Positions 55,461-63,436 of a stretch of 64,000 nt of DNA are shown in pieces. Source of the stretch: an uncultured Bacteroidia bacterium (lineage in GTDB: Bacteria; UBA4055); assembly GCA_964648295.1 (NCBI GenBank), contig CAZYNH010000002.1, positions 259,075-323,074 of the forward strand. Direction: 5' to 3'. A program made the position numbers and the translations under genes. A model generated the notes under the pieces. It did not search any database, was not told the origin of the DNA, and saw nothing but the letters and a program-made list of their open reading frames with translations. Every line of letters starts with the position of its first letter. The first letter of the stretch is position 1.

Positions 55461-57260
55461 ATGATGTCAGGAAGCATGAAAAATATTCTAATATCTCTCG
55501 TTGTATTTTACGGCGTTCTAAATGCGCAAAAAGCCGTTAAGATGAGCTCATCTGCTACAGATATCTTCAAAAACGATGTTTTTGAGCTGGAGATAAGGCT
55601 CGAAAATTTTAATTCTGATGTTTCTGTTCAGTATCCTTCATTCAATGATCTTCAAAAAATATCAGGCCCGTTCCAGTCGTCAAGTACTTCGATAATCAAC
55701 GGAACGATGACAAAATCTGTAACCCTGACTTATCAGTTCGCTCCAAAAAGAACGGGAAAGATAACAATAGATCCCGTTTCGGTCACCGACGAAGGTAAGG
55801 TATACAAGTCCGACCCCCTGACTGTTAATGTCTTTGAACAGGGTTCTGCGGCCAACAATTCAAGAGATATGTTCATAGTTGCGGAAATAAGCTCGAAAAA
55901 TGTCTTTGTAGGCGAGATGGTAAGGCTGGATCTAGTTCTCTATATAAAACCGGAGATCAGGCTAAGTGCCCCATCTGTTAAAACTGAGCCGAAATTTACC
56001 GGATTCGTAAAGGAAAATATAGAAATTCCTCAGGAAAAACTCAGAACTCTTGTTCAGACGATTTATAAAGGCACAAAATACAACACGCTGCCTTTAAGAA
56101 GTTACTGGCTGACGCCGACTTCATCCGGGGAAAAGGTTATTGAATCCGTGAGCGTCAATGTTCCTGTAGAAGTCAGAACTAAGAAAAAGAACAGGGGATT
56201 CTTCAACGATCCCTTCTTCGATGATGATGTTTTTTCAGGATTCAGCAGTTATCAGGATAAAACCGTACTTTCAGACGAGTTGAACCTGACAGTCACAAGC
56301 CTGCCTGAGCAGGGAAAACCTTCTGATTTTTCCGGTGCGGTAGGAACTTTCAGCATAATGTCTTCATTGGACAGGGATTCGGTTTCTGTCAACGAGGGCG
56401 TTAGTCTGAAAATCGTTATCTCAGGAACAGGCAATTTATCCGATATACGAGATCTCAATCTCAAATTCCCAAGAGATTTCGAGGTTTACGATCCTAAAAG
56501 GACGGTTTCATTAAACCAAGATAACAAAAAGAACGGAAAAATTACATTTGAGTATCTTCTTCTTGCAAGGAATCCGGGAAAACACGCCCTTAAAGATATT
56601 TCTTTCCCTTATTTTGATCTAAAGGAGAAAAAATACAGATCGGTCAGGACCAAAGACCATCTGGTAACTGTGTCAGGTGAAGGTAAGGCTTTTGCGGCTT
56701 CAAGAGCAGGCGGATTTTCAAGGCGGGATGTTGAAGTTCTGGCCAGCGATATAAGGTATATCAAAAAGGACCGGCCCGATTTCTATAAAATAGAATCAAA
56801 ATATTTTAACCCCGCAGAATTCTTTGCGAGATCAGGTGTCTCAATTTTTATTATAATCCTTTCCCTGTTCGTAAGAGTTTATATTTCAAAAAACTCGGGC
56901 AACGAAGCCCTGTCAAGACGGAAGAAAGCCGCGGCCAACGCGATCAGAAGGCTGAAAGAATCTTATAAGGTACTCGGTTATAAAGATTATCTGAAATTCT
57001 ATAAAACGCTTGATGAAGCCCTATTAAAATTCATTGCCGACAAACTGAATATAAGCCACGCGGGCATAGTGACAGATGAGATAGTGCCTGTGTTAAAAAA
57101 TTTGTCTGTTCCGGATGACATAATATCGGATTTTACAGGGCTTCTTAATAAATCCGCATCAATTCAATACGCAGCGAGCAAGCCCGGAGAAGATGAAATG
57201 GCTAAAGATATTGAAAAAGCGAAAGAGCTTATGAGCGAACTTATTGTGAGGTTAAAATGA
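55461..57260 (+). CDS. batD: BatD-family (oxygen tolerance) protein
   Basis: Signal peptide, Ig-like repeats (GPFQSSSTSIING, GKITI, GAVGTF, ISGTGNL, DFEVYDP), DIRYIK then TM. Confidence 0.82.
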   Translation: MMSGSMKNILISLVVFYGVLNAQKAVKMSSSATDIFKNDVFELEIRLENFNSDVSVQYPSFNDLQKISGPFQSSSTSIINGTMTKSVTLTYQFAPKRTGKITIDPVSVTDEGKVYKSDPLTVNVFEQGSAANNSRDMFIVAEISSKNVFVGEMVRLDLVLYIKPEIRLSAPSVKTEPKFTGFVKENIEIPQEKLRTLVQTIYKGTKYNTLPLRSYWLTPTSSGEKVIESVSVNVPVEVRTKKKNRGFFNDPFFDDDVFSGFSSYQDKTVLSDELNLTVTSLPEQGKPSDFSGAVGTFSIMSSLDRDSVSVNEGVSLKIVISGTGNLSDIRDLNLKFPRDFEVYDPKRTVSLNQDNKKNGKITFEYLLLARNPGKHALKDISFPYFDLKEKKYRSVRTKDHLVTVSGEGKAFAASRAGGFSRRDVEVLASDIRYIKKDRPDFYKIESKYFNPAEFFARSGVSIFIIILSLFVRVYISKNSGNEALSRRKKAAANAIRRLKESYKVLGYKDYLKFYKTLDEALLKFIADKLNISHAGIVTDEIVPVLKNLSVPDDIISDFTGLLNKSASIQYAASKPGEDEMAKDIEKAKELMSELIVRLK

Positions 57261-58018
57261 AGATCCGCCCGGCTCTAATAGCGACAGTTATGGCCTTATA
57301 CCTGCAGGTTCTTACAAGCGCTCCCCAGACGGATTTCGATGAGGCGAATTCATATTACGAAAAAGGAGACTACGAAAATTCGTGCAGGCTTTACGAAAAA
57401 ATTCTTTCTGACGGTTATGAGAACGGCAAGCTGTATTACAATCTGGGAAATTCTTATTATAAGACCGGGGATATAGTCAGGGCTATATTAAATTATGAAA
57501 GAGCATTAAAATTAATTCCGGCGGACACCGATCTTTTAGAGAATTTAAAGACAGCGAGACTTTCTCTGGCTGACAAGATAAATGATGAGACCGTTGTGCC
57601 TTTTTTTACTTTCTATAATGATCTCAGGAATCACCTCAACATTTATACCGCGAAGAATTATTTTTATTTCTCAGTATTCGCCTTTTCGATCATATTTTCT
57701 CTTTTCATTCTGTCCAGATCAGCATTATTTAAGAAAAGTTTTGCTGTTTTAGGCATGATATCCGCTGTAATATCAGTTCTGACAGCTTATACATACTACG
57801 ATATTTATACGCAGAATTCGGAAAGGCACGGCATTGTTGCTGACGATAAGATATCTGTGCTTTCTTCACCAGATGAGAATATAAACTCGAAAGAGCTTTT
57901 CTACCTTCACAGAGGAACGAAAGCGAAGATTACAAGATCGAACGATCAATGGCTGGAGATAGAGATCGACAGCGAAAAGAAAGGCTGGGTCAGAAAAGAG
58001 GCTGTGATCGAGATATAA
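57257..58018 (+). CDS. batE: BatE-family TPR + TM + SH3 protein
   Basis: FDEANSYY, LYYNLGNSYYK.G...AILNYERAL, LH.GTK, W.EI....GWV. Confidence 0.85.
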   Translation: MKIRPALIATVMALYLQVLTSAPQTDFDEANSYYEKGDYENSCRLYEKILSDGYENGKLYYNLGNSYYKTGDIVRAILNYERALKLIPADTDLLENLKTARLSLADKINDETVVPFFTFYNDLRNHLNIYTAKNYFYFSVFAFSIIFSLFILSRSALFKKSFAVLGMISAVISVLTAYTYYDIYTQNSERHGIVADDKISVLSSPDENINSKELFYLHRGTKAKITRSNDQWLEIEIDSEKKGWVRKEAVIEI

Positions 58019-58078: not shown

Positions 58079-61000
58079 TTATTTTAAGGGTCTTTCAGTT
58101 TCCAACTTTATCGTATTATCTTTCGTGGCATTCTTCGATACAATATAGTAGAATTTTTTTGTCGCGGAATATTCAACAGAATACTGACTTGTTGTCACAT
58201 TAGCCTCGAATGTGAAAGTGCCGTTCGGGTCCGAAGACGAATAGACATCGTAGTTTGTGGCATCGGCCGAGTCGTCCCAGTCTATCACAATATTACTTCC
58301 CGCCATGCTTGTAACAATATTGGATGGAATTCCGGGGATGACAGAGGCAGAAATTTCGACTTCCTCTGCATTCGAAGGCCCTGATTCCGTAACAGGGTCG
58401 GTGTAAGTTGCTGTCACATAGTAGCTGTAACTGCCGTTAGAAAGCCCGTTGTCATTGTATGTCAGGGTCGCAGGATTTGCTATCGTAGCTATTGAACTTC
58501 CGTTCCTGTAAACCTTGTAACCGCTCAGGTTCGCTCTTGTCGTTCTCGGCTGTGACTCGAGGTCAGCCTTTGGAGGTTCTTTTCCGCGGTAAACCGATCT
58601 TCCGTAAACGCGGTTATCTTCGACTTCCTCGAAATCCTGACTAAATACAGGTTCGCCCTTTGCGTTATTGACGCTGATATCGTCTATAGCCAGAACGAAA
58701 GAATCGTTGGACACACATGTTATAGCCAGATATACGGTCTGTCCGGCATAGGCTGAAAGATCGTAACTGTACTGGGCCCATGATGCTGTTGATTCAACAT
58801 AGCTTCCGGCAGAGATTATTGTAAAATCGCCCTGAGCAGTCCCGGTAGTTGAAATTCCGACTTTGAATCTGTCTGCGCCCCAGTCCATTTTTATTGATTT
58901 TGCGTAAAAACTGAAGCTGTACCCGCTTCCGAGCAGAAGCTGGGGAGTGATCAGCCAGTCGTTATTCGGCGCAGAGGCTGCAAGAACAGCGAAACAGGCA
59001 GCGTATTTACTTCCTGTACGGGGAGCCCATGCTCCGGTCAGCGCGGGAGTTGTCTGGGACGGGTTGAATATAATATAAGATCCGATATAGCTTTCGTTAG
59101 TAAAATCAGCGTCGGTACTTCCGTATGCCGTACCGCCGTCGCCGTCTATCTGAGTCCAGTTGGCGAATGTGAGAGCGAAGTCTGAGTATTCCTCGAAGCT
59201 GTCAGCGAATGTATCAGGCTCTTCAAAATCCGGCGCTTCCCAGCTCAATGACACATTGGCTCCGTTAGCAACTGCAGCGAGTTCTTTGGGAGGATCAGGA
59301 AGTACAGGCGCCGATTCGGTTTTGAATGTCATATTGGAGCCGTAAGAGGTACCTTCGCTGTTAACTGCTTTGATCCTGTAGTTGTATGTTGTGTTCTCAG
59401 AAAGTCCGGTCAGGTTCGCGCTTACTGCAGTGTTGCTTGTGCCGGTCACTGTACCCGGTACGGCCGCCACCGAACTGCCGTAGGATGTTGTAAGCCCGTA
59501 CTCGAATGTGACTGTCGTTGAGTATCCGTTGGCGTTCACAGTGCCGTTCAGGACGGCTTCTTCTACGGATACAGAATTTGCGGCTTGTGTCGATACTACC
59601 GGGGGATAGGAAACTGTTTCAGTGGTTATCGAAATATTATCGATGTCCCAGTAATAGCCCCATGTGCCTGTATAGTTCCACTTGAATTTTACCTGAGGCT
59701 GATTAGCTACCGCAGCGATCACCTGGCTGAAGGATGCGGGATTAGCGCTCGTGGCCGACCATGACTGTATCACCGTCCAGTTAGTGCCGCCGTTGATACT
59801 GTATGAAAGCGTAGCCGATGAGCCGGTGTAGGACCTGAAATAGTGCGAAAAAGCCAGTGTAATATTAGTAGCGCCTGTCATATCGATCAAGGGAGTTACA
59901 AGATCAGCGTTCTGGCTGTTCCCGCTTCCATATGCGTCACTGTTAAGATATGCGTAATTTCCGTCGGCACCTGAGAGACCGCTCGTATGGGTACCGAACT
60001 GCCATACCTGCCCGTTGCCCTGATTGTCAACGATCTTCCATCCTGCCGGAAGTGTTGTTCCCGCGTTAAAGTTTTCGTATAGCGGCAGAGACATAGCCGC
60101 TTCAACGACAGACACGGTCCATGTGGCAGAATACGAACCGGGTCCGTAGGTATTATTCGCCAGAACCTTCCAGTAGTAAGTTCCGTAATTTAAGTTCGCT
60201 GATGGAGTGTATGTACTGGATGTCGGGTTCTGGTTAATTTCTGGCGAGCTGAAATCTGAATTATTATCTACCAGTATGGTATACGATGTTGCCCCGGAAA
60301 CATCATTCCAGTCAAATGTTGGTGTCATATCCCCCGTTGAGCTTCCGTTGGACGGGCTTGCAAGCGTCGGCGTCCCGGGCGCCGCTCCGATGTTTACTGT
60401 CCACGCCGATGAATATGAGCTTGAACCGTATGAGTTGGTTGCTAGAACTCTCCAGTAATATGTCCCGTATGCAAGGTTGGACGACGGAGTATAAGTTATG
60501 GCGGCGACTGTCTGATTTACCTCCGGCGATGAAAAATTTGAGTTGTTGTCGACCTGAATTGTATAAGAAGTACCGCCTACATTGCTCCATTCGAAAGTCG
60601 GGGTCTGATCTGTGGTGCCTCCGCTGTTGGACGGGCTCAAAAGAGTTGGTGTCGGTGGCGGTGTAGTTCCTGTCGATACCGTTATATCAAGAAATTTCGT
60701 TTCTGTGTTGAATCCGGTAACTGTAAGTTTTGCAGCATCCGCTACAAGTGATTGAGATATTGTAACATTTCCGGATGCGTCGGTGAATCCTGCATAGGTG
60801 TTGCCGTTCTGATAAAGTGATACAAGCGCATTCTGGAAGTTGGATCCGGCCGCTTTAATATTCGTAGTAAATGGAACACCTACGGTTACAGATGTGTTGG
60901 AAACTGTAAGTAACTTCGGCGGATCTGTTCTTAACTGAAGCGATACATCCCCGAAAATTATCCAGGCTTCCTGTGTGTCTTTAGTCGCGGCATCCGTCGG

Positions 61001-62680
61001 GGCTTCCTGGAGCATAAGATTAGACGCATTGCAGCAAACAGTTCCCACTGTCGTTCTCTGTTCTGTTACATTTATTCCGTCGCCCGGCTGCGATGAATAA
61101 TCATAGCCGCCTTTTATGATATCGTTATAGTAATCCTGGGCTTTCATCGGAGGCAGCCATGGCTGGCTTATTGAAGAGAACCATCCTCCAACTGCACCGC
61201 CGTTCGTTTTTCTCAGCCACGATTCCGCGAAACATGGTTTTGACGCATATTCGACATTACCCACAAGGCAGGCAACTGATACTACAAAAGGAAGCATATC
61301 GCCGTTCGTAAGAGTAGCCACGTCAGTGTCATAAAGATAACCGCCGTAAATTGATTGAAAGCAGTCATAACTTCCGTGTCCTGTATAGTTTATGATCGAT
61401 CTTCCGTTGTTTACATATCCAAGTATTGTCGCTTTTGTGACATTGTTAGCCTGGTATGCCGTGCTGACAGAAGCATAAGTAAACGGTAGTTGTTTGTAGT
61501 TTATAATGATATCCGAATGGGCCTGGTCTCCTTCACCGTCATCACCTGATCCGGCTCCCTCGTTTGAGGCTATGCCAAGGCCTTTTTCGTACCATGTTCC
61601 GCTTGGAGTAGGATTCTTTTCATAATTGATAGCTTTGTTTATCTGGTTAGTCAGTTCAGCTTCTGAAGAAACAGAGAATCTGCCAACTAAAACATCAATA
61701 TACTGGTCCGATCCTACTGTGCATCCGAGCATCGGGTCCTGAGCTCCGGTCGTGGATGTAACACTGTTAAGTACCTGAGATTTCAGGTTCGGGAAATCTC
61801 CGACTATCTGGGCATAAAGGATGTTAGTATTCAGCAGGTACTGGTTTTTTATATCCTGCGTTACATACAAGTCCGTTCCGTTGGGTTTTTCAAGTGTATG
61901 AACGGTAAAACCCTTCTGTCTTTTCCAGTCTATCCATGGCTGAATTGCGGCTAATCCTCCGTTATTTGGAGTATAGATAACAAGTATTTCACCGTGTCCG
62001 CCTATTGGAAGGGCTTTGGTTTCATTATAATTCAGGAAGATGCTTTTATACATACCGCTCATTTCAGGAAAAACCTGTTTCGGTTTTACAGTCACAGGAT
62101 TGACCGGTTCACTGTCATTTTCGATAAGCGATATTCTAAGATTTTTATAAATCCTGAGCGTTTTTGATGCGAAATTATACTGATAAGGGTAAACGATAAT
62201 GTTCGTCCCTCTTACATCTCTCATAATAAAAGGGTCAGTTATCTCCGCAATCTTTCCGGGGTACCATTCATTTTTTACAGATCCGTCGGCGATTCTGTAG
62301 GGTATCTCGTCAATTTTCTGGCTTCTTGAGATTATTCCTCTTGAAGGAAGGAGCGGATATTTCAGTTCGATGTCTTCGTAACCGTCGAAAGAATATTTCA
62401 TTTCGACATTCCTGTCTTCCTTAAGCTGTACCGCTGTTGCGTGATACGGAATCTCGGCGTATCCTTCATCTACAGTAAAAACGCTCCCGGCACCTTTAAT
62501 CACGCTGTAACTGATTCCGCCTTTCTCTACTGTCGTAACGATGAAATCCGCTACATTAAAATCAAGGAGCATTTCAGAATCTGATAACCTGCTGTATTCA
62601 ACAGTAAAACCTCTCCCGGTTTTTGAGAAAACCGTTACGGCAATTATTAAAAGCGCCGCAACAAAAAAACACTTCTTCAT
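58079..62680 (-). CDS. Secreted C25 (gingipain-family) cysteine peptidase with propeptide, Fn3-like and cleaved-adhesin domains
   Basis: Signal peptide; propeptide RDVRG..YP.QY; VGRFS; catalytic INYTGHG and VSVACLVG; FAESWL; GDVSL; two adhesin-like domains (W..DN, NDWLITP). Confidence 0.9.
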   Translation of the reverse strand: MKKCFFVAALLIIAVTVFSKTGRGFTVEYSRLSDSEMLLDFNVADFIVTTVEKGGISYSVIKGAGSVFTVDEGYAEIPYHATAVQLKEDRNVEMKYSFDGYEDIELKYPLLPSRGIISRSQKIDEIPYRIADGSVKNEWYPGKIAEITDPFIMRDVRGTNIIVYPYQYNFASKTLRIYKNLRISLIENDSEPVNPVTVKPKQVFPEMSGMYKSIFLNYNETKALPIGGHGEILVIYTPNNGGLAAIQPWIDWKRQKGFTVHTLEKPNGTDLYVTQDIKNQYLLNTNILYAQIVGDFPNLKSQVLNSVTSTTGAQDPMLGCTVGSDQYIDVLVGRFSVSSEAELTNQINKAINYEKNPTPSGTWYEKGLGIASNEGAGSGDDGEGDQAHSDIIINYKQLPFTYASVSTAYQANNVTKATILGYVNNGRSIINYTGHGSYDCFQSIYGGYLYDTDVATLTNGDMLPFVVSVACLVGNVEYASKPCFAESWLRKTNGGAVGGWFSSISQPWLPPMKAQDYYNDIIKGGYDYSSQPGDGINVTEQRTTVGTVCCNASNLMLQEAPTDAATKDTQEAWIIFGDVSLQLRTDPPKLLTVSNTSVTVGVPFTTNIKAAGSNFQNALVSLYQNGNTYAGFTDASGNVTISQSLVADAAKLTVTGFNTETKFLDITVSTGTTPPPTPTLLSPSNSGGTTDQTPTFEWSNVGGTSYTIQVDNNSNFSSPEVNQTVAAITYTPSSNLAYGTYYWRVLATNSYGSSSYSSAWTVNIGAAPGTPTLASPSNGSSTGDMTPTFDWNDVSGATSYTILVDNNSDFSSPEINQNPTSSTYTPSANLNYGTYYWKVLANNTYGPGSYSATWTVSVVEAAMSLPLYENFNAGTTLPAGWKIVDNQGNGQVWQFGTHTSGLSGADGNYAYLNSDAYGSGNSQNADLVTPLIDMTGATNITLAFSHYFRSYTGSSATLSYSINGGTNWTVIQSWSATSANPASFSQVIAAVANQPQVKFKWNYTGTWGYYWDIDNISITTETVSYPPVVSTQAANSVSVEEAVLNGTVNANGYSTTVTFEYGLTTSYGSSVAAVPGTVTGTSNTAVSANLTGLSENTTYNYRIKAVNSEGTSYGSNMTFKTESAPVLPDPPKELAAVANGANVSLSWEAPDFEEPDTFADSFEEYSDFALTFANWTQIDGDGGTAYGSTDADFTNESYIGSYIIFNPSQTTPALTGAWAPRTGSKYAACFAVLAASAPNNDWLITPQLLLGSGYSFSFYAKSIKMDWGADRFKVGISTTGTAQGDFTIISAGSYVESTASWAQYSYDLSAYAGQTVYLAITCVSNDSFVLAIDDISVNNAKGEPVFSQDFEEVEDNRVYGRSVYRGKEPPKADLESQPRTTRANLSGYKVYRNGSSIATIANPATLTYNDNGLSNGSYSYYVTATYTDPVTESGPSNAEEVEISASVIPGIPSNIVTSMAGSNIVIDWDDSADATNYDVYSSSDPNGTFTFEANVTTSQYSVEYSATKKFYYIVSKNATKDNTIKLETERPLK
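60105..60663 (-). repeat. Two tandem ~95-aa Fn3-like repeats inside the C25 gene (boundaries approximate)
   Basis: PTLLSPSN..TDQTPTFEW..TSYTIQVDNNSNFSSPE..YGTYYWRV vs PTLASPSN..DMTPTFDW..TSYTILVDNNSDFSSPE..YGTYYWKV. Confidence 0.85.
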
Positions 62681-62770
62681 TTCTTCTCCTCGTTTTTGGT
62701 TTCTATTTATTTTTTCTACTTGTGCGGCTGCAGTTTTTACATGCGATCAGCGTAATTTGACCTAATTTTG

Positions 62771-62799
62771 AATTTATATTACATCCGCTTGGTTGTCAA
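62771..62799 (-). promoter_or_regulatory. Promoter for the C25 gene
   Basis: Minus strand TTGACA-17 nt-TAAATT. Confidence 0.6.
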
Positions 62800-62879
62800 G
62801 TTTAAAAAATAATTTTTTTTTGTTTATTTTAAAAATTTCCTGTTATTATATTGGAACAGACAGTTATCGGGGAGGATTT

Positions 62880-63436
62880 ATGAAAAAAAGGCGACTAATA
62901 ATGATTATGGCAGCCATAGTTTTTACAGCATGGGGGGAAGAGATCAGTACCTCGCCTGTAAATCCGGAATTTCTGAAGCAGACGGAACAAAGGGAGAACG
63001 GAATTCTTGTCACAAAGACAGAAGAAGGTTATTCTCCGGGTTACACTTATCCTATCCTTTCGAAACTGCATACTCCGGATATGCGAATCCTGTTATTGAG
63101 ACGGGCGTGTTCTGGTTCAGTTCAACATGGACTTCAGCCGGACAGGGAACTTCATACTTAAGAGATCCCTGTGTTAAATCCTACGGGGCGGTAATAGAAC
63201 TCGGTATTCCTCAGAACGTAGCTACTTCGGTTACCGGATCGGACCTGACCGTTTCATGGAGCGGGGTAACCGGCGCGACTTCTTATGTAGTTTATTCTTC
63301 CGATGATCCTTACGGTACTTTCGCAATAGACAATTCAGGCTCTTTCAACGGAACACAATAGACGGCATCGATCGTTAATCAGAAAAAATTCTACTATGTG
63401 ACAGCGACGAACGCGAAAACGAAAGTTCATAACTAA
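62880..63436 (+). pseudogene. Remnant of a secreted protein (C1A papain/lectin-like type) with internal deletion, frameshift and in-frame TAG
   Basis: GGAGG SD, signal peptide and SPVNPEF N-terminus; frame change near 63057; TAG at 63359-61 interrupts a C-terminal module that continues KKFYYVTATN to TAA 63436. Confidence 0.7.

What the first reader, a model, noticed from the sequence alone, without database searches (positions are those of the whole stretch)
58079..63436. Shared ~70-aa C-terminal module on two unrelated secreted proteases: candidate lineage-specific sorting or anchoring signal
Seen: the C25 tail (58079-58333) GIPSNIVTSMAGSNIVIDW..ATNYDVYSSSDPNGTF...KKFYYIVSKNA aligns by hand with the pseudogene tail (63203-63436) GIPQNVATSVTGSDLTVSW..ATSYVVYSSDDPYGTF...KKFYYVTATNA, about 29 identities in about 73 positions. 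Known: gingipains normally end in a T9SS CTD with a YxxxY / K(x)xxK-type tail, which is not recognisable here. Inference: this module, with its YSS.DP.GTF and KKFYY motifs, may be a distinct export or surface-attachment tag, implying an undescribed secretion variant.
Basis: partly seen in the sequence, partly recalled or inferred. Interest (0 to 1): 0.65.

Follow-up and report, generated by a model that had tools for sequence, protein, structure and literature searches.

The report
Fn3 tail replacing T9SS sorting domain
About 26 secreted enzymes of this uncultured (Delongbacteria-type) bacterium end in the same small fibronectin-III-like domain exactly where their relatives carry the standard type IX secretion tag, so it is probably a second, undescribed export or surface-attachment tail, though this has not been shown by experiment.

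Summary
The tail of the C25 protease and the tail of the neighbouring broken gene align at 29/71 identities (E 6e-18). The broken gene is a papain-family (C1) peptidase remnant.

The module is not a private oddity of these two genes. A profile of it finds 26 proteins in this 2.5-Mb genome, always within 0-40 residues of the stop codon, and nearly all have signal peptides. It also finds 8-78 copies in 14 of the 15 other Delongbacteria species genomes held.

By fold it is a plain Fn3 domain, not a T9SS CTD: there is no profile similarity, and Foldseek returns only Fn3 hits. The genome also has a T9SS (SprA, PorU, PorV) and 48 canonical type A CTDs.

The strongest evidence is positional:
- The module and the type A CTD never occur in one protein (0 of about 134).
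- They sit on the same cargo families (C25, C10, C1, S8, PPAD, GLUG).
- They replace each other at the same junction in paralogues and in orthologues.

Best reading (about 0.5): an alternative C-terminal sorting or anchoring tail for T9SS-type cargo. Main rival: a terminal binding or assembly domain with no role in export.

The parts
58079..62680 (-). Gene for a 1533-aa gingipain-like protein: signal peptide, Propeptide_C25, Peptidase_C25, Fn3/Big-like repeats, MAM/Cleaved_Adhesin-like domain, choice-of-anchor J domain, Fn3 tail
   Evidence: ORF; Pfam; NCBIfam choice_anch_J at 100 bits
58127..58333 (-). C-terminal Fn3 module of the C25 protein (residues 1450-1518, GIPSNIVTS...KKFYYIVSKNA)
   Evidence: BLASTP; AF2 model pLDDT 85; Foldseek top 50 all Fn3; 104.5 bits against the A1 profile
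58082..58126 (-). 15-residue extension after the module (TKDNTIKLETERPLK). It is predicted disordered and belongs to the recurrent 'P.TI.VK ... K' extension type
   Evidence: pLDDT 44-54; extension census
62880..63161 (+). 5' piece of a degraded Peptidase_C1 gene. It holds the signal peptide and the pro-region motif (SPVNPEF...), then runs out of register into a stop
   Evidence: 35% identity to the N-terminus of intact 564/570-aa homologues in G006/G008
63056..63202 (+). Remnant of the end of the Lectin_like domain, in the frame of the tail
   Evidence: alignment to L068; Pfam of the intact homologue
63203..63436 (+). Fn3 tail module of the remnant gene (GIPQNVATS...KKFYYVTATNAKTKVHN, stop codon included)
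   Evidence: 68% identity to the tail region of L068; 86 bits against the A1 profile, with 1 TAG inside,
63359..63361 (+). In-frame TAG inside the module where homologues have TGG (Trp)

Best explanation
The shared tail is a distinct, lineage-specific clade of fibronectin-type-III domain. It has about 70 residues and the signature W..(D/G)A(T/S)sY.VY(S/A)S.DPYGTF...KkFyYvva.N. [quoted passage not shown]

Shown: the module is always the last domain. It sits on Sec-signal proteins. It never coexists with the canonical type A CTD. It replaces that CTD at the same domain junction in paralogues and in orthologues.

Inferred: after Sec export, the Fn3 tail is what decides the protein's fate at the outer membrane. 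Most probably it is recognised by the SprA translocon or by a shared shuttle for T9SS-dependent export. Alternatively or additionally, it holds the enzyme on the cell surface by non-covalent binding, in place of the PorU-mediated covalent anchoring used by type A cargo. No carrier gene has a cognate partner gene next to it. Any receptor would therefore be shared, as PorV is for type A cargo, and not private, as PorP/SprF proteins are for type B cargo.
For: 1. Position. An HMM of the two window tails finds 25 ORFs in the genome with the module 0-24 aa from the stop. A crude gene set gives 26 carriers. In 45 loci from other genomes every strong hit is within 40 aa of the stop, and only weak generic hits are internal. 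In all there are 71 non-redundant terminal instances.

2. A clade of its own. In an ML tree of the 56 Fn3-like domains of the genome, 25 terminal copies (plus 2 N-terminal ones) separate from 28 internal repeats with 92/90 support. Fisher's test of clade against position gives p = 2e-12.

3. Secreted carriers. 21 of 25 carriers have obvious signal peptides. The other four are truncated or of unclear start.

4. Cargo families. The carriers include Peptidase_C25 (5 copies), S8, C10 with Inhibitor_I69, PAD_porph, GLUG/M26-like, FG-GAP and beta-helix proteins, and C1. The family list is shown by the tools. That these are the classical T9SS cargo families rests on my own knowledge.

5. Mutual exclusivity. 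The own genome has 48 type A proteins and 26 module proteins, with 0 carrying both. The loci add 13 type A and 48 module proteins, again with 0 carrying both. The two kinds of gene are interleaved in the same clusters.

6. Tail swaps.
- Paralogues C2:187667-188986 (module) and C12:28045-29442 (type A) are homologous over residues 1-343 (E 1e-58) and then diverge into the two tails.
- C12:24434-27910 (module), residues 582-1070, is 50% identical to a type A protein up to the start of its CTD.
- The PPAD-like carrier aligns from residue 1 to 745 with its orthologues in the two module-poor genomes G001 and G002. Those orthologues then end in NYPNPFNP...KMLLVK.

7. Complementary distribution. The module is found in 15 of 16 Delongbacteria genomes, 14 of them with 8-78 copies. 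G001 has no copy and G002 has a single weak match, and these two have 60 and 141 type A CTDs.

8. T9SS parts are present: SprA, PorU at 593 bits, PorV at 211 bits.
Against: - No sequence or profile relation to type A CTDs and none to type B.
- The fold is Fn3. A type A CTD of the same genome, modelled as a control, finds T9SS cargo CTDs (8glk_D, 8qb1, 8gl8_D), whereas the module finds only Fn3 domains.
- The wider Fn3 superfamily is mostly internal and repetitive: 48,744 proteins, the top ones with 10-44 copies.
- The same clade occurs N-terminally on two secreted FGE-sulfatase proteins. A strictly C-terminal signal would not be expected there.
- About 40% of copies are followed by 8-42 extra residues. 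The type A CTDs of this genome end 3-11 residues after the profile match.
- No dedicated partner gene was found.
- One secretin exists, so another outer-membrane route is not excluded.
- There is no experimental or proteomic evidence of export, cleavage or anchoring.
Confidence: 0.5

Rival explanations
1. The tail is a terminal binding or assembly domain and not an export signal. Like a dockerin or a cell-surface-binding module, it would tether diverse hydrolases to a surface polymer, a scaffold protein or each other. The proteins would cross the outer membrane by some other means, or through a signal that lies elsewhere.
For: - The fold is Fn3, which typically serves as a binding or spacer domain.
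- The same clade is N-terminal on two FGE-sulfatase proteins. One of them is in an apparent operon with a carrier, so Fn3-Fn3 or Fn3-receptor contacts are conceivable.
- Extensions of variable length follow the domain.
- Dozens of different enzymes share one terminal module, as in cellulosomal systems.
Against: - No other outer-membrane export route for 1000-1600-aa enzymes was identified. The only secretin has pilMNO-like neighbours.
- A pure binding domain would be expected to combine with a type A CTD at least sometimes, as the internal Fn3-like domains do. This never happens in about 134 proteins.
- In orthologues it replaces the CTD itself, not a domain upstream of it.
- No repeated receptor or scaffold gene was found next to carriers.
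Confidence: 0.3
2. The carriers are CTD-less derivatives that are no longer exported and stay in the periplasm or on the periplasmic face. The terminal Fn3 is just the domain that happened to replace a lost CTD, spread by recombination between paralogues, and has no addressing function.
For: - There is no homology to any known sorting signal.
- Tails are clearly exchanged by recombination among cargo genes that lie in clusters.
- One carrier in the window is already a pseudogene.
Against: - The module clade is conserved, with invariant W, Y, Y, P and F, across at least 5 genera and at 8-78 copies per genome.
- It is kept on intact genes for large pro-proteases, whose substrates are expected to be extracellular.
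- Related tails occur in Cloacimonadota and in two Bacteroidales-labelled contigs.
- So many large periplasmic gingipain-like proteases would be unprecedented (own knowledge).
Confidence: 0.12
3. The resemblance is a generic Fn3 similarity or a chance match, and has no significance beyond fold.
For: Pfam fn3 matches 6 of 22 tails weakly. The global profile search is dominated by generic multi-Fn3 proteins.
Against: - Pairwise E is 6e-18.
- The tails form a separate clade with strict terminal position, p = 2e-12.
- Tails are 55-71% identical across unrelated passenger families in public data.
Confidence: 0.03

Closest known systems
T9SS type A C-terminal domain (TIGR04183 / PF18962, e.g. the CTDs of RgpB, PPAD and mirolase)
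   Same: - It is the last domain of Sec-signal proteins and a beta-sandwich of about 70-80 residues.
- It is carried by the same cargo families (C25, C10, C1, S8, PPAD).
- It occupies the identical junction in paralogues and orthologues.
- No cognate gene lies next to the cargo genes.
- It often ends in Lys or Arg (63% of copies).
   Different: - There is no sequence or profile similarity.
- The topology is Fn3, not CTD-type Ig-like.
- The NYPNPF and KM.L.K motifs are absent.
- 40% of copies have an 8-42 residue extension after the domain.
- Dependence on PorV and PorU is unknown.
T9SS type B CTD (TIGR04131) with PorP/SprF-like shuttles (PMC9143113, PMC12618676)
   Same: It sets the precedent that the T9SS accepts a second, unrelated class of C-terminal signal, one that also directs final localisation.
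   Different: - No TIGR04131 match.
- The module is much shorter than the 150-235 residues of type B CTDs.
- No PorP/SprF family gene was detected in module-bearing genomes (with the caveat that the controls stayed silent).
- No conserved downstream partner gene.
Bacterial Fn3 domains of the 'Y.V.RS' type (PDB 3mpc; the Fn3 of C. thermocellum CtXyl5A, 5g56)
   Same: Same fold and the same core motifs: profile E 4e-9 and 1e-7, TM-score about 0.65.
   Different: Those domains are internal linkers or repeats of glycoside hydrolases. This clade is position-locked to the C-terminus, has its own DPYGTF and KKFYY signatures, and alternates with a secretion signal.
Dockerin modules of cellulosomal enzymes
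   Same: One small terminal module is shared by dozens of different hydrolases in one genome.
   Different: The fold is unrelated: no Ca-binding EF-hand repeats, and no Dockerin hit in Pfam. No cohesin-like scaffold was found.
Atypical CTD of Flavobacterium johnsoniae ChiA
   Same: It is a T9SS-dependent C-terminal region that fits neither the type A nor the type B profile. This shows that T9SS signals are more diverse than the two curated families.
   Different: It is a single protein in a Bacteroidota species, not an expanded family. No sequence comparison was made here.

Membership tests
T9SS type A CTD (TIGR04183 / PF18962) | Match to the curated profile | tested here: not met
   No hit on the C25 protein or on 22 tails at E<=1. 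hhalign against this genome's own type A CTDs gives probability 0.15%.
T9SS type A CTD (TIGR04183 / PF18962) | CTD-type Ig-like 3+4 beta-sandwich | tested here: not met
   The top 50 Foldseek hits of the module model are all Fn3. The control model of a type A CTD from this genome hits the CTDs of NucA, RemZ and mirolase.
T9SS type A CTD (TIGR04183 / PF18962) | Extreme C-terminal position on proteins with a Sec signal peptide | tested here: met
T9SS type A CTD (TIGR04183 / PF18962) | Necessary and sufficient for T9SS export; removed by PorU | not testable with these tools
   Needs reporter fusions or proteomics. SprA, PorU and PorV genes are present.
T9SS type B CTD (TIGR04131) | Match to the curated profile | tested here: not met
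   (the control genomes were silent)
T9SS type B CTD (TIGR04131) | A cognate porP/sprF-like gene, commonly directly downstream | tested here: not met
   No TIGR03519 match in 14 module-bearing genomes. No recurrent non-cargo neighbour.
Fibronectin type III superfamily | Seven-stranded Fn3 beta-sandwich | tested here: met
   AF2 pLDDT 85. Foldseek probability 1.00 and TM about 0.65 to 5g56, 3mpc, 7jgu and titin Fn3.
Fibronectin type III superfamily | Sequence-profile match | tested here: inconclusive
   Pfam fn3 matches 6 of 22 tails; its best E-value is 5e-5 and member 1 has no fn3 match. A PDB profile search gives 3mpc at E 4e-9.
Membrane-anchor sorting signals (PEP-CTERM, LPXTG, GlyGly-CTERM) | Short motif, then a hydrophobic helix, then a basic tail at the C-terminus | tested here: not met
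   No NCBIfam hit. The tails contain no hydrophobic stretch (sequences).
Dockerin | Duplicated Ca-binding loop-helix motif | tested here: not met
   No Dockerin family among the Pfam hits. The model is all-beta.

The most novel reading that the evidence does not exclude
The Fn3 tail is a third class of type IX secretion signal. It is built on a different fold from the type A and type B CTDs, arose within Delongbacteria/Cloacimonadota, and took over roughly a third of the cargo repertoire. It would be recognised by the SprA translocon or by a shared shuttle. It might direct a different final destination, such as release or non-covalent surface display, instead of PorU-mediated lipid anchoring. 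The optional 'SPKTIEVK...K' extension might add a further targeting cue.
Probability: 0.4. Interest if true: 0.75.

Novelty: new variant of a known kind. Interest (0 to 1): 0.6.

Why it matters
Current T9SS cargo prediction rests on two curated tail families. If this Fn3 tail is a working signal, cargo lists for whole candidate phyla are about a third too short: here 26 carriers are missed beside 48 recognised ones.

It would also mean that the translocon or its shuttles recognise a fold other than the CTD sandwich. That bears on the open question of what the T9SS actually reads in its substrates.

The clean natural tail swaps (same passenger, two tails) offer ready-made construct pairs for testing this. 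If the tail instead proves to be a surface-assembly module, it would point to a dockerin-like organisation of proteases in an uncultured sludge bacterium.

Public annotations currently leave the tail unnamed.

Tried and rejected
1. The global profile search with the 22-tail alignment was swamped by giant proteins holding 10-44 generic Fn3 repeats. It could not answer the positional question outside this phylum. It only shows that the superfamily is widespread.

2. Iterating the HMM in the genome drifted into internal Fn3-like repeats. I went back to the non-iterated profile and used a tree instead.

3. Search for a dedicated partner:
- The PorV-like paralogues turned out to lie beside type A cargo, not beside carriers.
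- No PorP/SprF gene was found.
- No recurrent neighbour family was found.
- The FGE-sulfatase cluster on contig C16 is not a gldKLMN operon.

4. The GldM and type B profiles gave no hits, but their control genomes were silent too. These are not evidence of absence.

5. The idea that the Fibrobacter 'basic terminal domain' is a lineage-specific precedent was dropped. The paper reports one such domain (cellulase FSU_2914) now annotated as TIGR04183, the type A family (PMC6851124).

6. The first pattern scan with the full alignment failed because no stretch was conserved enough. It was repeated with the 8 closest tails.

7. A stop-codon reassignment (TAG or TGA read as Trp) was considered as an explanation for the in-frame stop. 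It was rejected because the gene also carries a large deletion and a frameshift, and all the other genes read normally under table 11.
Full report
**1. The observation**

The 1533-aa ORF on the minus strand (58079-62680) is a gingipain-like protein. It has Propeptide_C25, Peptidase_C25, Ig/Fn3-like repeats, MAM/Cleaved_Adhesin-like regions and two choice-of-anchor J stretches. Its last 84 residues align with the + strand frame 63203-63436 at 29/71 identities, E 6e-18. That second frame holds an in-frame TAG at 63359-63361.

The second gene is a remnant. A search of related genomes with its 93-aa N-terminal piece found intact 564/570-aa homologues. The G006 one consists of a signal peptide, Peptidase_C1, a Lectin_like domain and this tail. 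The window copy keeps about 60 N-terminal and about 130 C-terminal residues (68% identical). It has lost about 340 residues in between, changes frame, and has TAG where the homologue has Trp. A Logan contig from an activated-sludge metagenome run carries the same sequence. It is probably from the same sample, so it is not independent.

**2. How common the module is**

The genome has 2.53 Mb in 34 contigs, 43% G+C and 99% estimated completeness. An HMM of the two window tails finds 25 six-frame ORFs in it with the module 0-24 residues from the stop. A crude gene set gives 26 carriers.

Of the 25 C-terminal carriers, 21 start with an obvious signal peptide. The other four are at a contig edge, broken or of unclear start.

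The nearest public relatives of the tail are in MAGs labelled Candidatus Delongbacteria or UBP11. Weaker relatives occur in Cloacimonadota and in two Bacteroidales-labelled contigs. In all 45 loci fetched, every strong match lies within 40 residues of a stop, and only weak generic matches are internal.

Of the 16 species genomes of the phylum that are held, 14 have 8-78 copies. One (G001) has none and one (G002) has a single weak match.

**3. What the module is by sequence and fold**

No Pfam or NCBIfam family reaches significance. There are weak fn3 and GH85_C matches only. A profile search of PDB sequences finds the Fn3-like protein 3mpc (E 4e-9) and the Fn3 of CtXyl5A.

The AlphaFold model (pLDDT 85) is an all-beta sandwich, and its top 50 Foldseek hits are all Fn3 domains. 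As a control, a type A CTD from the same genome was modelled (pLDDT 93). It retrieves T9SS cargo CTDs (NucA in 8glk, RemZ in 8gl8, mirolase 8qb1) among Ig-like folds. A profile-profile comparison of the module with this genome's type A CTDs gives probability 0.15%.

So the tail is an Fn3 domain, not a divergent CTD.

A whole-library profile search shows that the wider superfamily is very common and mostly internal and repetitive: 48,744 proteins, the best with 10-44 copies. Within this genome, however, a maximum-likelihood tree of all 56 Fn3-like domains puts the terminal copies in one clade, apart from 28 internal repeats (92/90 support). Fisher's test of clade against position gives p = 2e-12. 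The only non-terminal members of the clade are the N-terminal domains of two secreted FGE-sulfatase proteins.

**4. Relation to the T9SS**

The genome encodes SprA, PorU (593 bits) and PorV (211 bits over its full length, below the curated cut-off). It also encodes 48 proteins with canonical type A CTDs, which end in ...KM.L.K. The GldM, PorP/SprF and type B profiles gave nothing, but their controls were silent.

The carriers' passenger domains are Peptidase_C25 (five copies), S8, C10 with Inhibitor_I69, PAD_porph, GLUG/M26-like, FG-GAP, beta-helix and NIDO. Public proteins with 55-71% identical tails add PKD, Calx-beta/endonuclease I and metallophosphatase passengers. None of them is annotated with a T9SS tail.

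Three observations link the module to the CTD position:
- **Mutual exclusivity.** No protein has both tails: 48 type A and 26 module proteins in the genome, and 13 type A and 48 module proteins in the loci. Internal Fn3-like domains, by contrast, do occur upstream of type A CTDs.
- **Interleaving.** The two kinds of gene alternate in the same clusters, for example MOD-T9A-MOD-T9A-T9A on contig C12.
- **Tail swaps.** A 440-aa carrier and a 466-aa type A protein are homologous over residues 1-343 (E 1e-58) and then diverge into the two tails. Another carrier is 50% identical to a type A protein up to the start of that protein's CTD. C25 paralogues carry either tail. The PPAD-like carrier aligns from residue 1 to 745 with its orthologues in the two module-poor genomes, and those orthologues then end in a type A CTD. 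Those two genomes have 60 and 141 type A CTDs.

**5. Mechanism**

The data show a position-locked terminal domain that alternates with the T9SS signal on the same cargo. They do not show what it does.

I consider it most likely (about 0.5) that it is an alternative sorting or anchoring tail for T9SS-type cargo. Of that, about 0.4 goes to a true T9SS export signal. Precedents for more than one signal class exist: type B CTDs with PorP/SprF shuttles, and CTDs that carry both a secretion and a targeting signal (PMC12618676; PMC9143113).

No gene recurs next to the carriers. Any receptor would therefore be shared, as PorV is.

Several points count against this reading:
- The fold is different from that of the CTD.
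- The clade occurs N-terminally on two FGE-sulfatase proteins.
- About 40% of copies carry an 8-42-residue extension after the domain. The extension is often '(E)SP(K/R)TIE(V/I)K...' and ends in K or R. The type A CTDs of this genome end 3-11 residues after the profile match.

These points keep alive the rival that the tail is a binding or assembly domain (0.3), and the weaker rival that carriers are simply no longer exported (0.12). The only other outer-membrane conduit seen is one secretin with pilMNO-like neighbours.

**6. Novelty and verdict**

The tail is unannotated in public records and absent from Pfam and NCBIfam. I found nothing on secretion in Delongbacteria in the literature library.

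The fold is ordinary. What is new is its use as a CTD-replacing terminal module across a candidate phylum. I rate this a new variant of a known kind, with interest 0.6.

Noticed in passing
G000 C15:30017-31195 and C13:38777-39904 (outside the window): Two secreted FGE-sulfatase (PF03781) proteins begin, after the signal peptide, with an Fn3 of the same clade as the C-terminal module (53 and 48 bits). The C13 gene overlaps the stop of a module carrier, which suggests an operon. A possible interaction partner, or merely domain sharing.
   Followed up: partly
window 58082-58126, and the tails of other carriers (G000 C12:17062-20553, C2:187667-188986, L019, L024 and others): About 20 of 71 module copies are followed by a short conserved extension '(E)SP(K/R)TIE(V/I)K...'. 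63% of all copies end in Lys or Arg. AlphaFold predicts the extension disordered. Its function is unknown.
   Followed up: partly
window 62880-63436: Degraded Peptidase_C1 + Lectin_like + module gene. It has an internal deletion of about 340 aa, a frame change and TGG->TAG. Intact 564/570-aa homologues exist in two genomes of another genus (L067, L068).
   Followed up: yes
G000 C10:67870-68913, C15:7896-8849, C15:8871-9782: Three PorV-like paralogues exist besides the main PorV (C9:87805-88893). Each lies next to type A CTD cargo genes. They may be specialised shuttles for subsets of type A cargo.
   Followed up: partly
Delongbacteria genomes G001 and G002 (handles): These two genomes have no copy (G001) or a single weak match (G002) of the Fn3 tail, but have the most type A CTDs relative to the rest (60 and 141). 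They are useful as natural negatives for phylogenetic profiling.
   Followed up: partly
G000 C16:3677-26773: A cluster of six FGE-sulfatase-domain genes with similar N-termini (AQFEVIKDITDLPGD...). The genome holds 13 such proteins in all, including the 1569-aa Fn3-repeat protein at C1:210328-215034.
   Followed up: no
window 55461-58018: The two + strand ORFs that end next to the 3' end of the C25 gene (599 and 253 aa) look like BatD/BatE-type aerotolerance-operon proteins (TPR plus SH3-like). This is by eye and from memory only, and was not tested.
   Followed up: no
L032, L041, L042: Module-bearing contigs are binned as Gastranaerophilales, Acetofilamentum and Bacteroidaceae. The L032 tail is nearly identical to Delongbacteria tails, so mis-binning or recent transfer is likely.
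   Followed up: no
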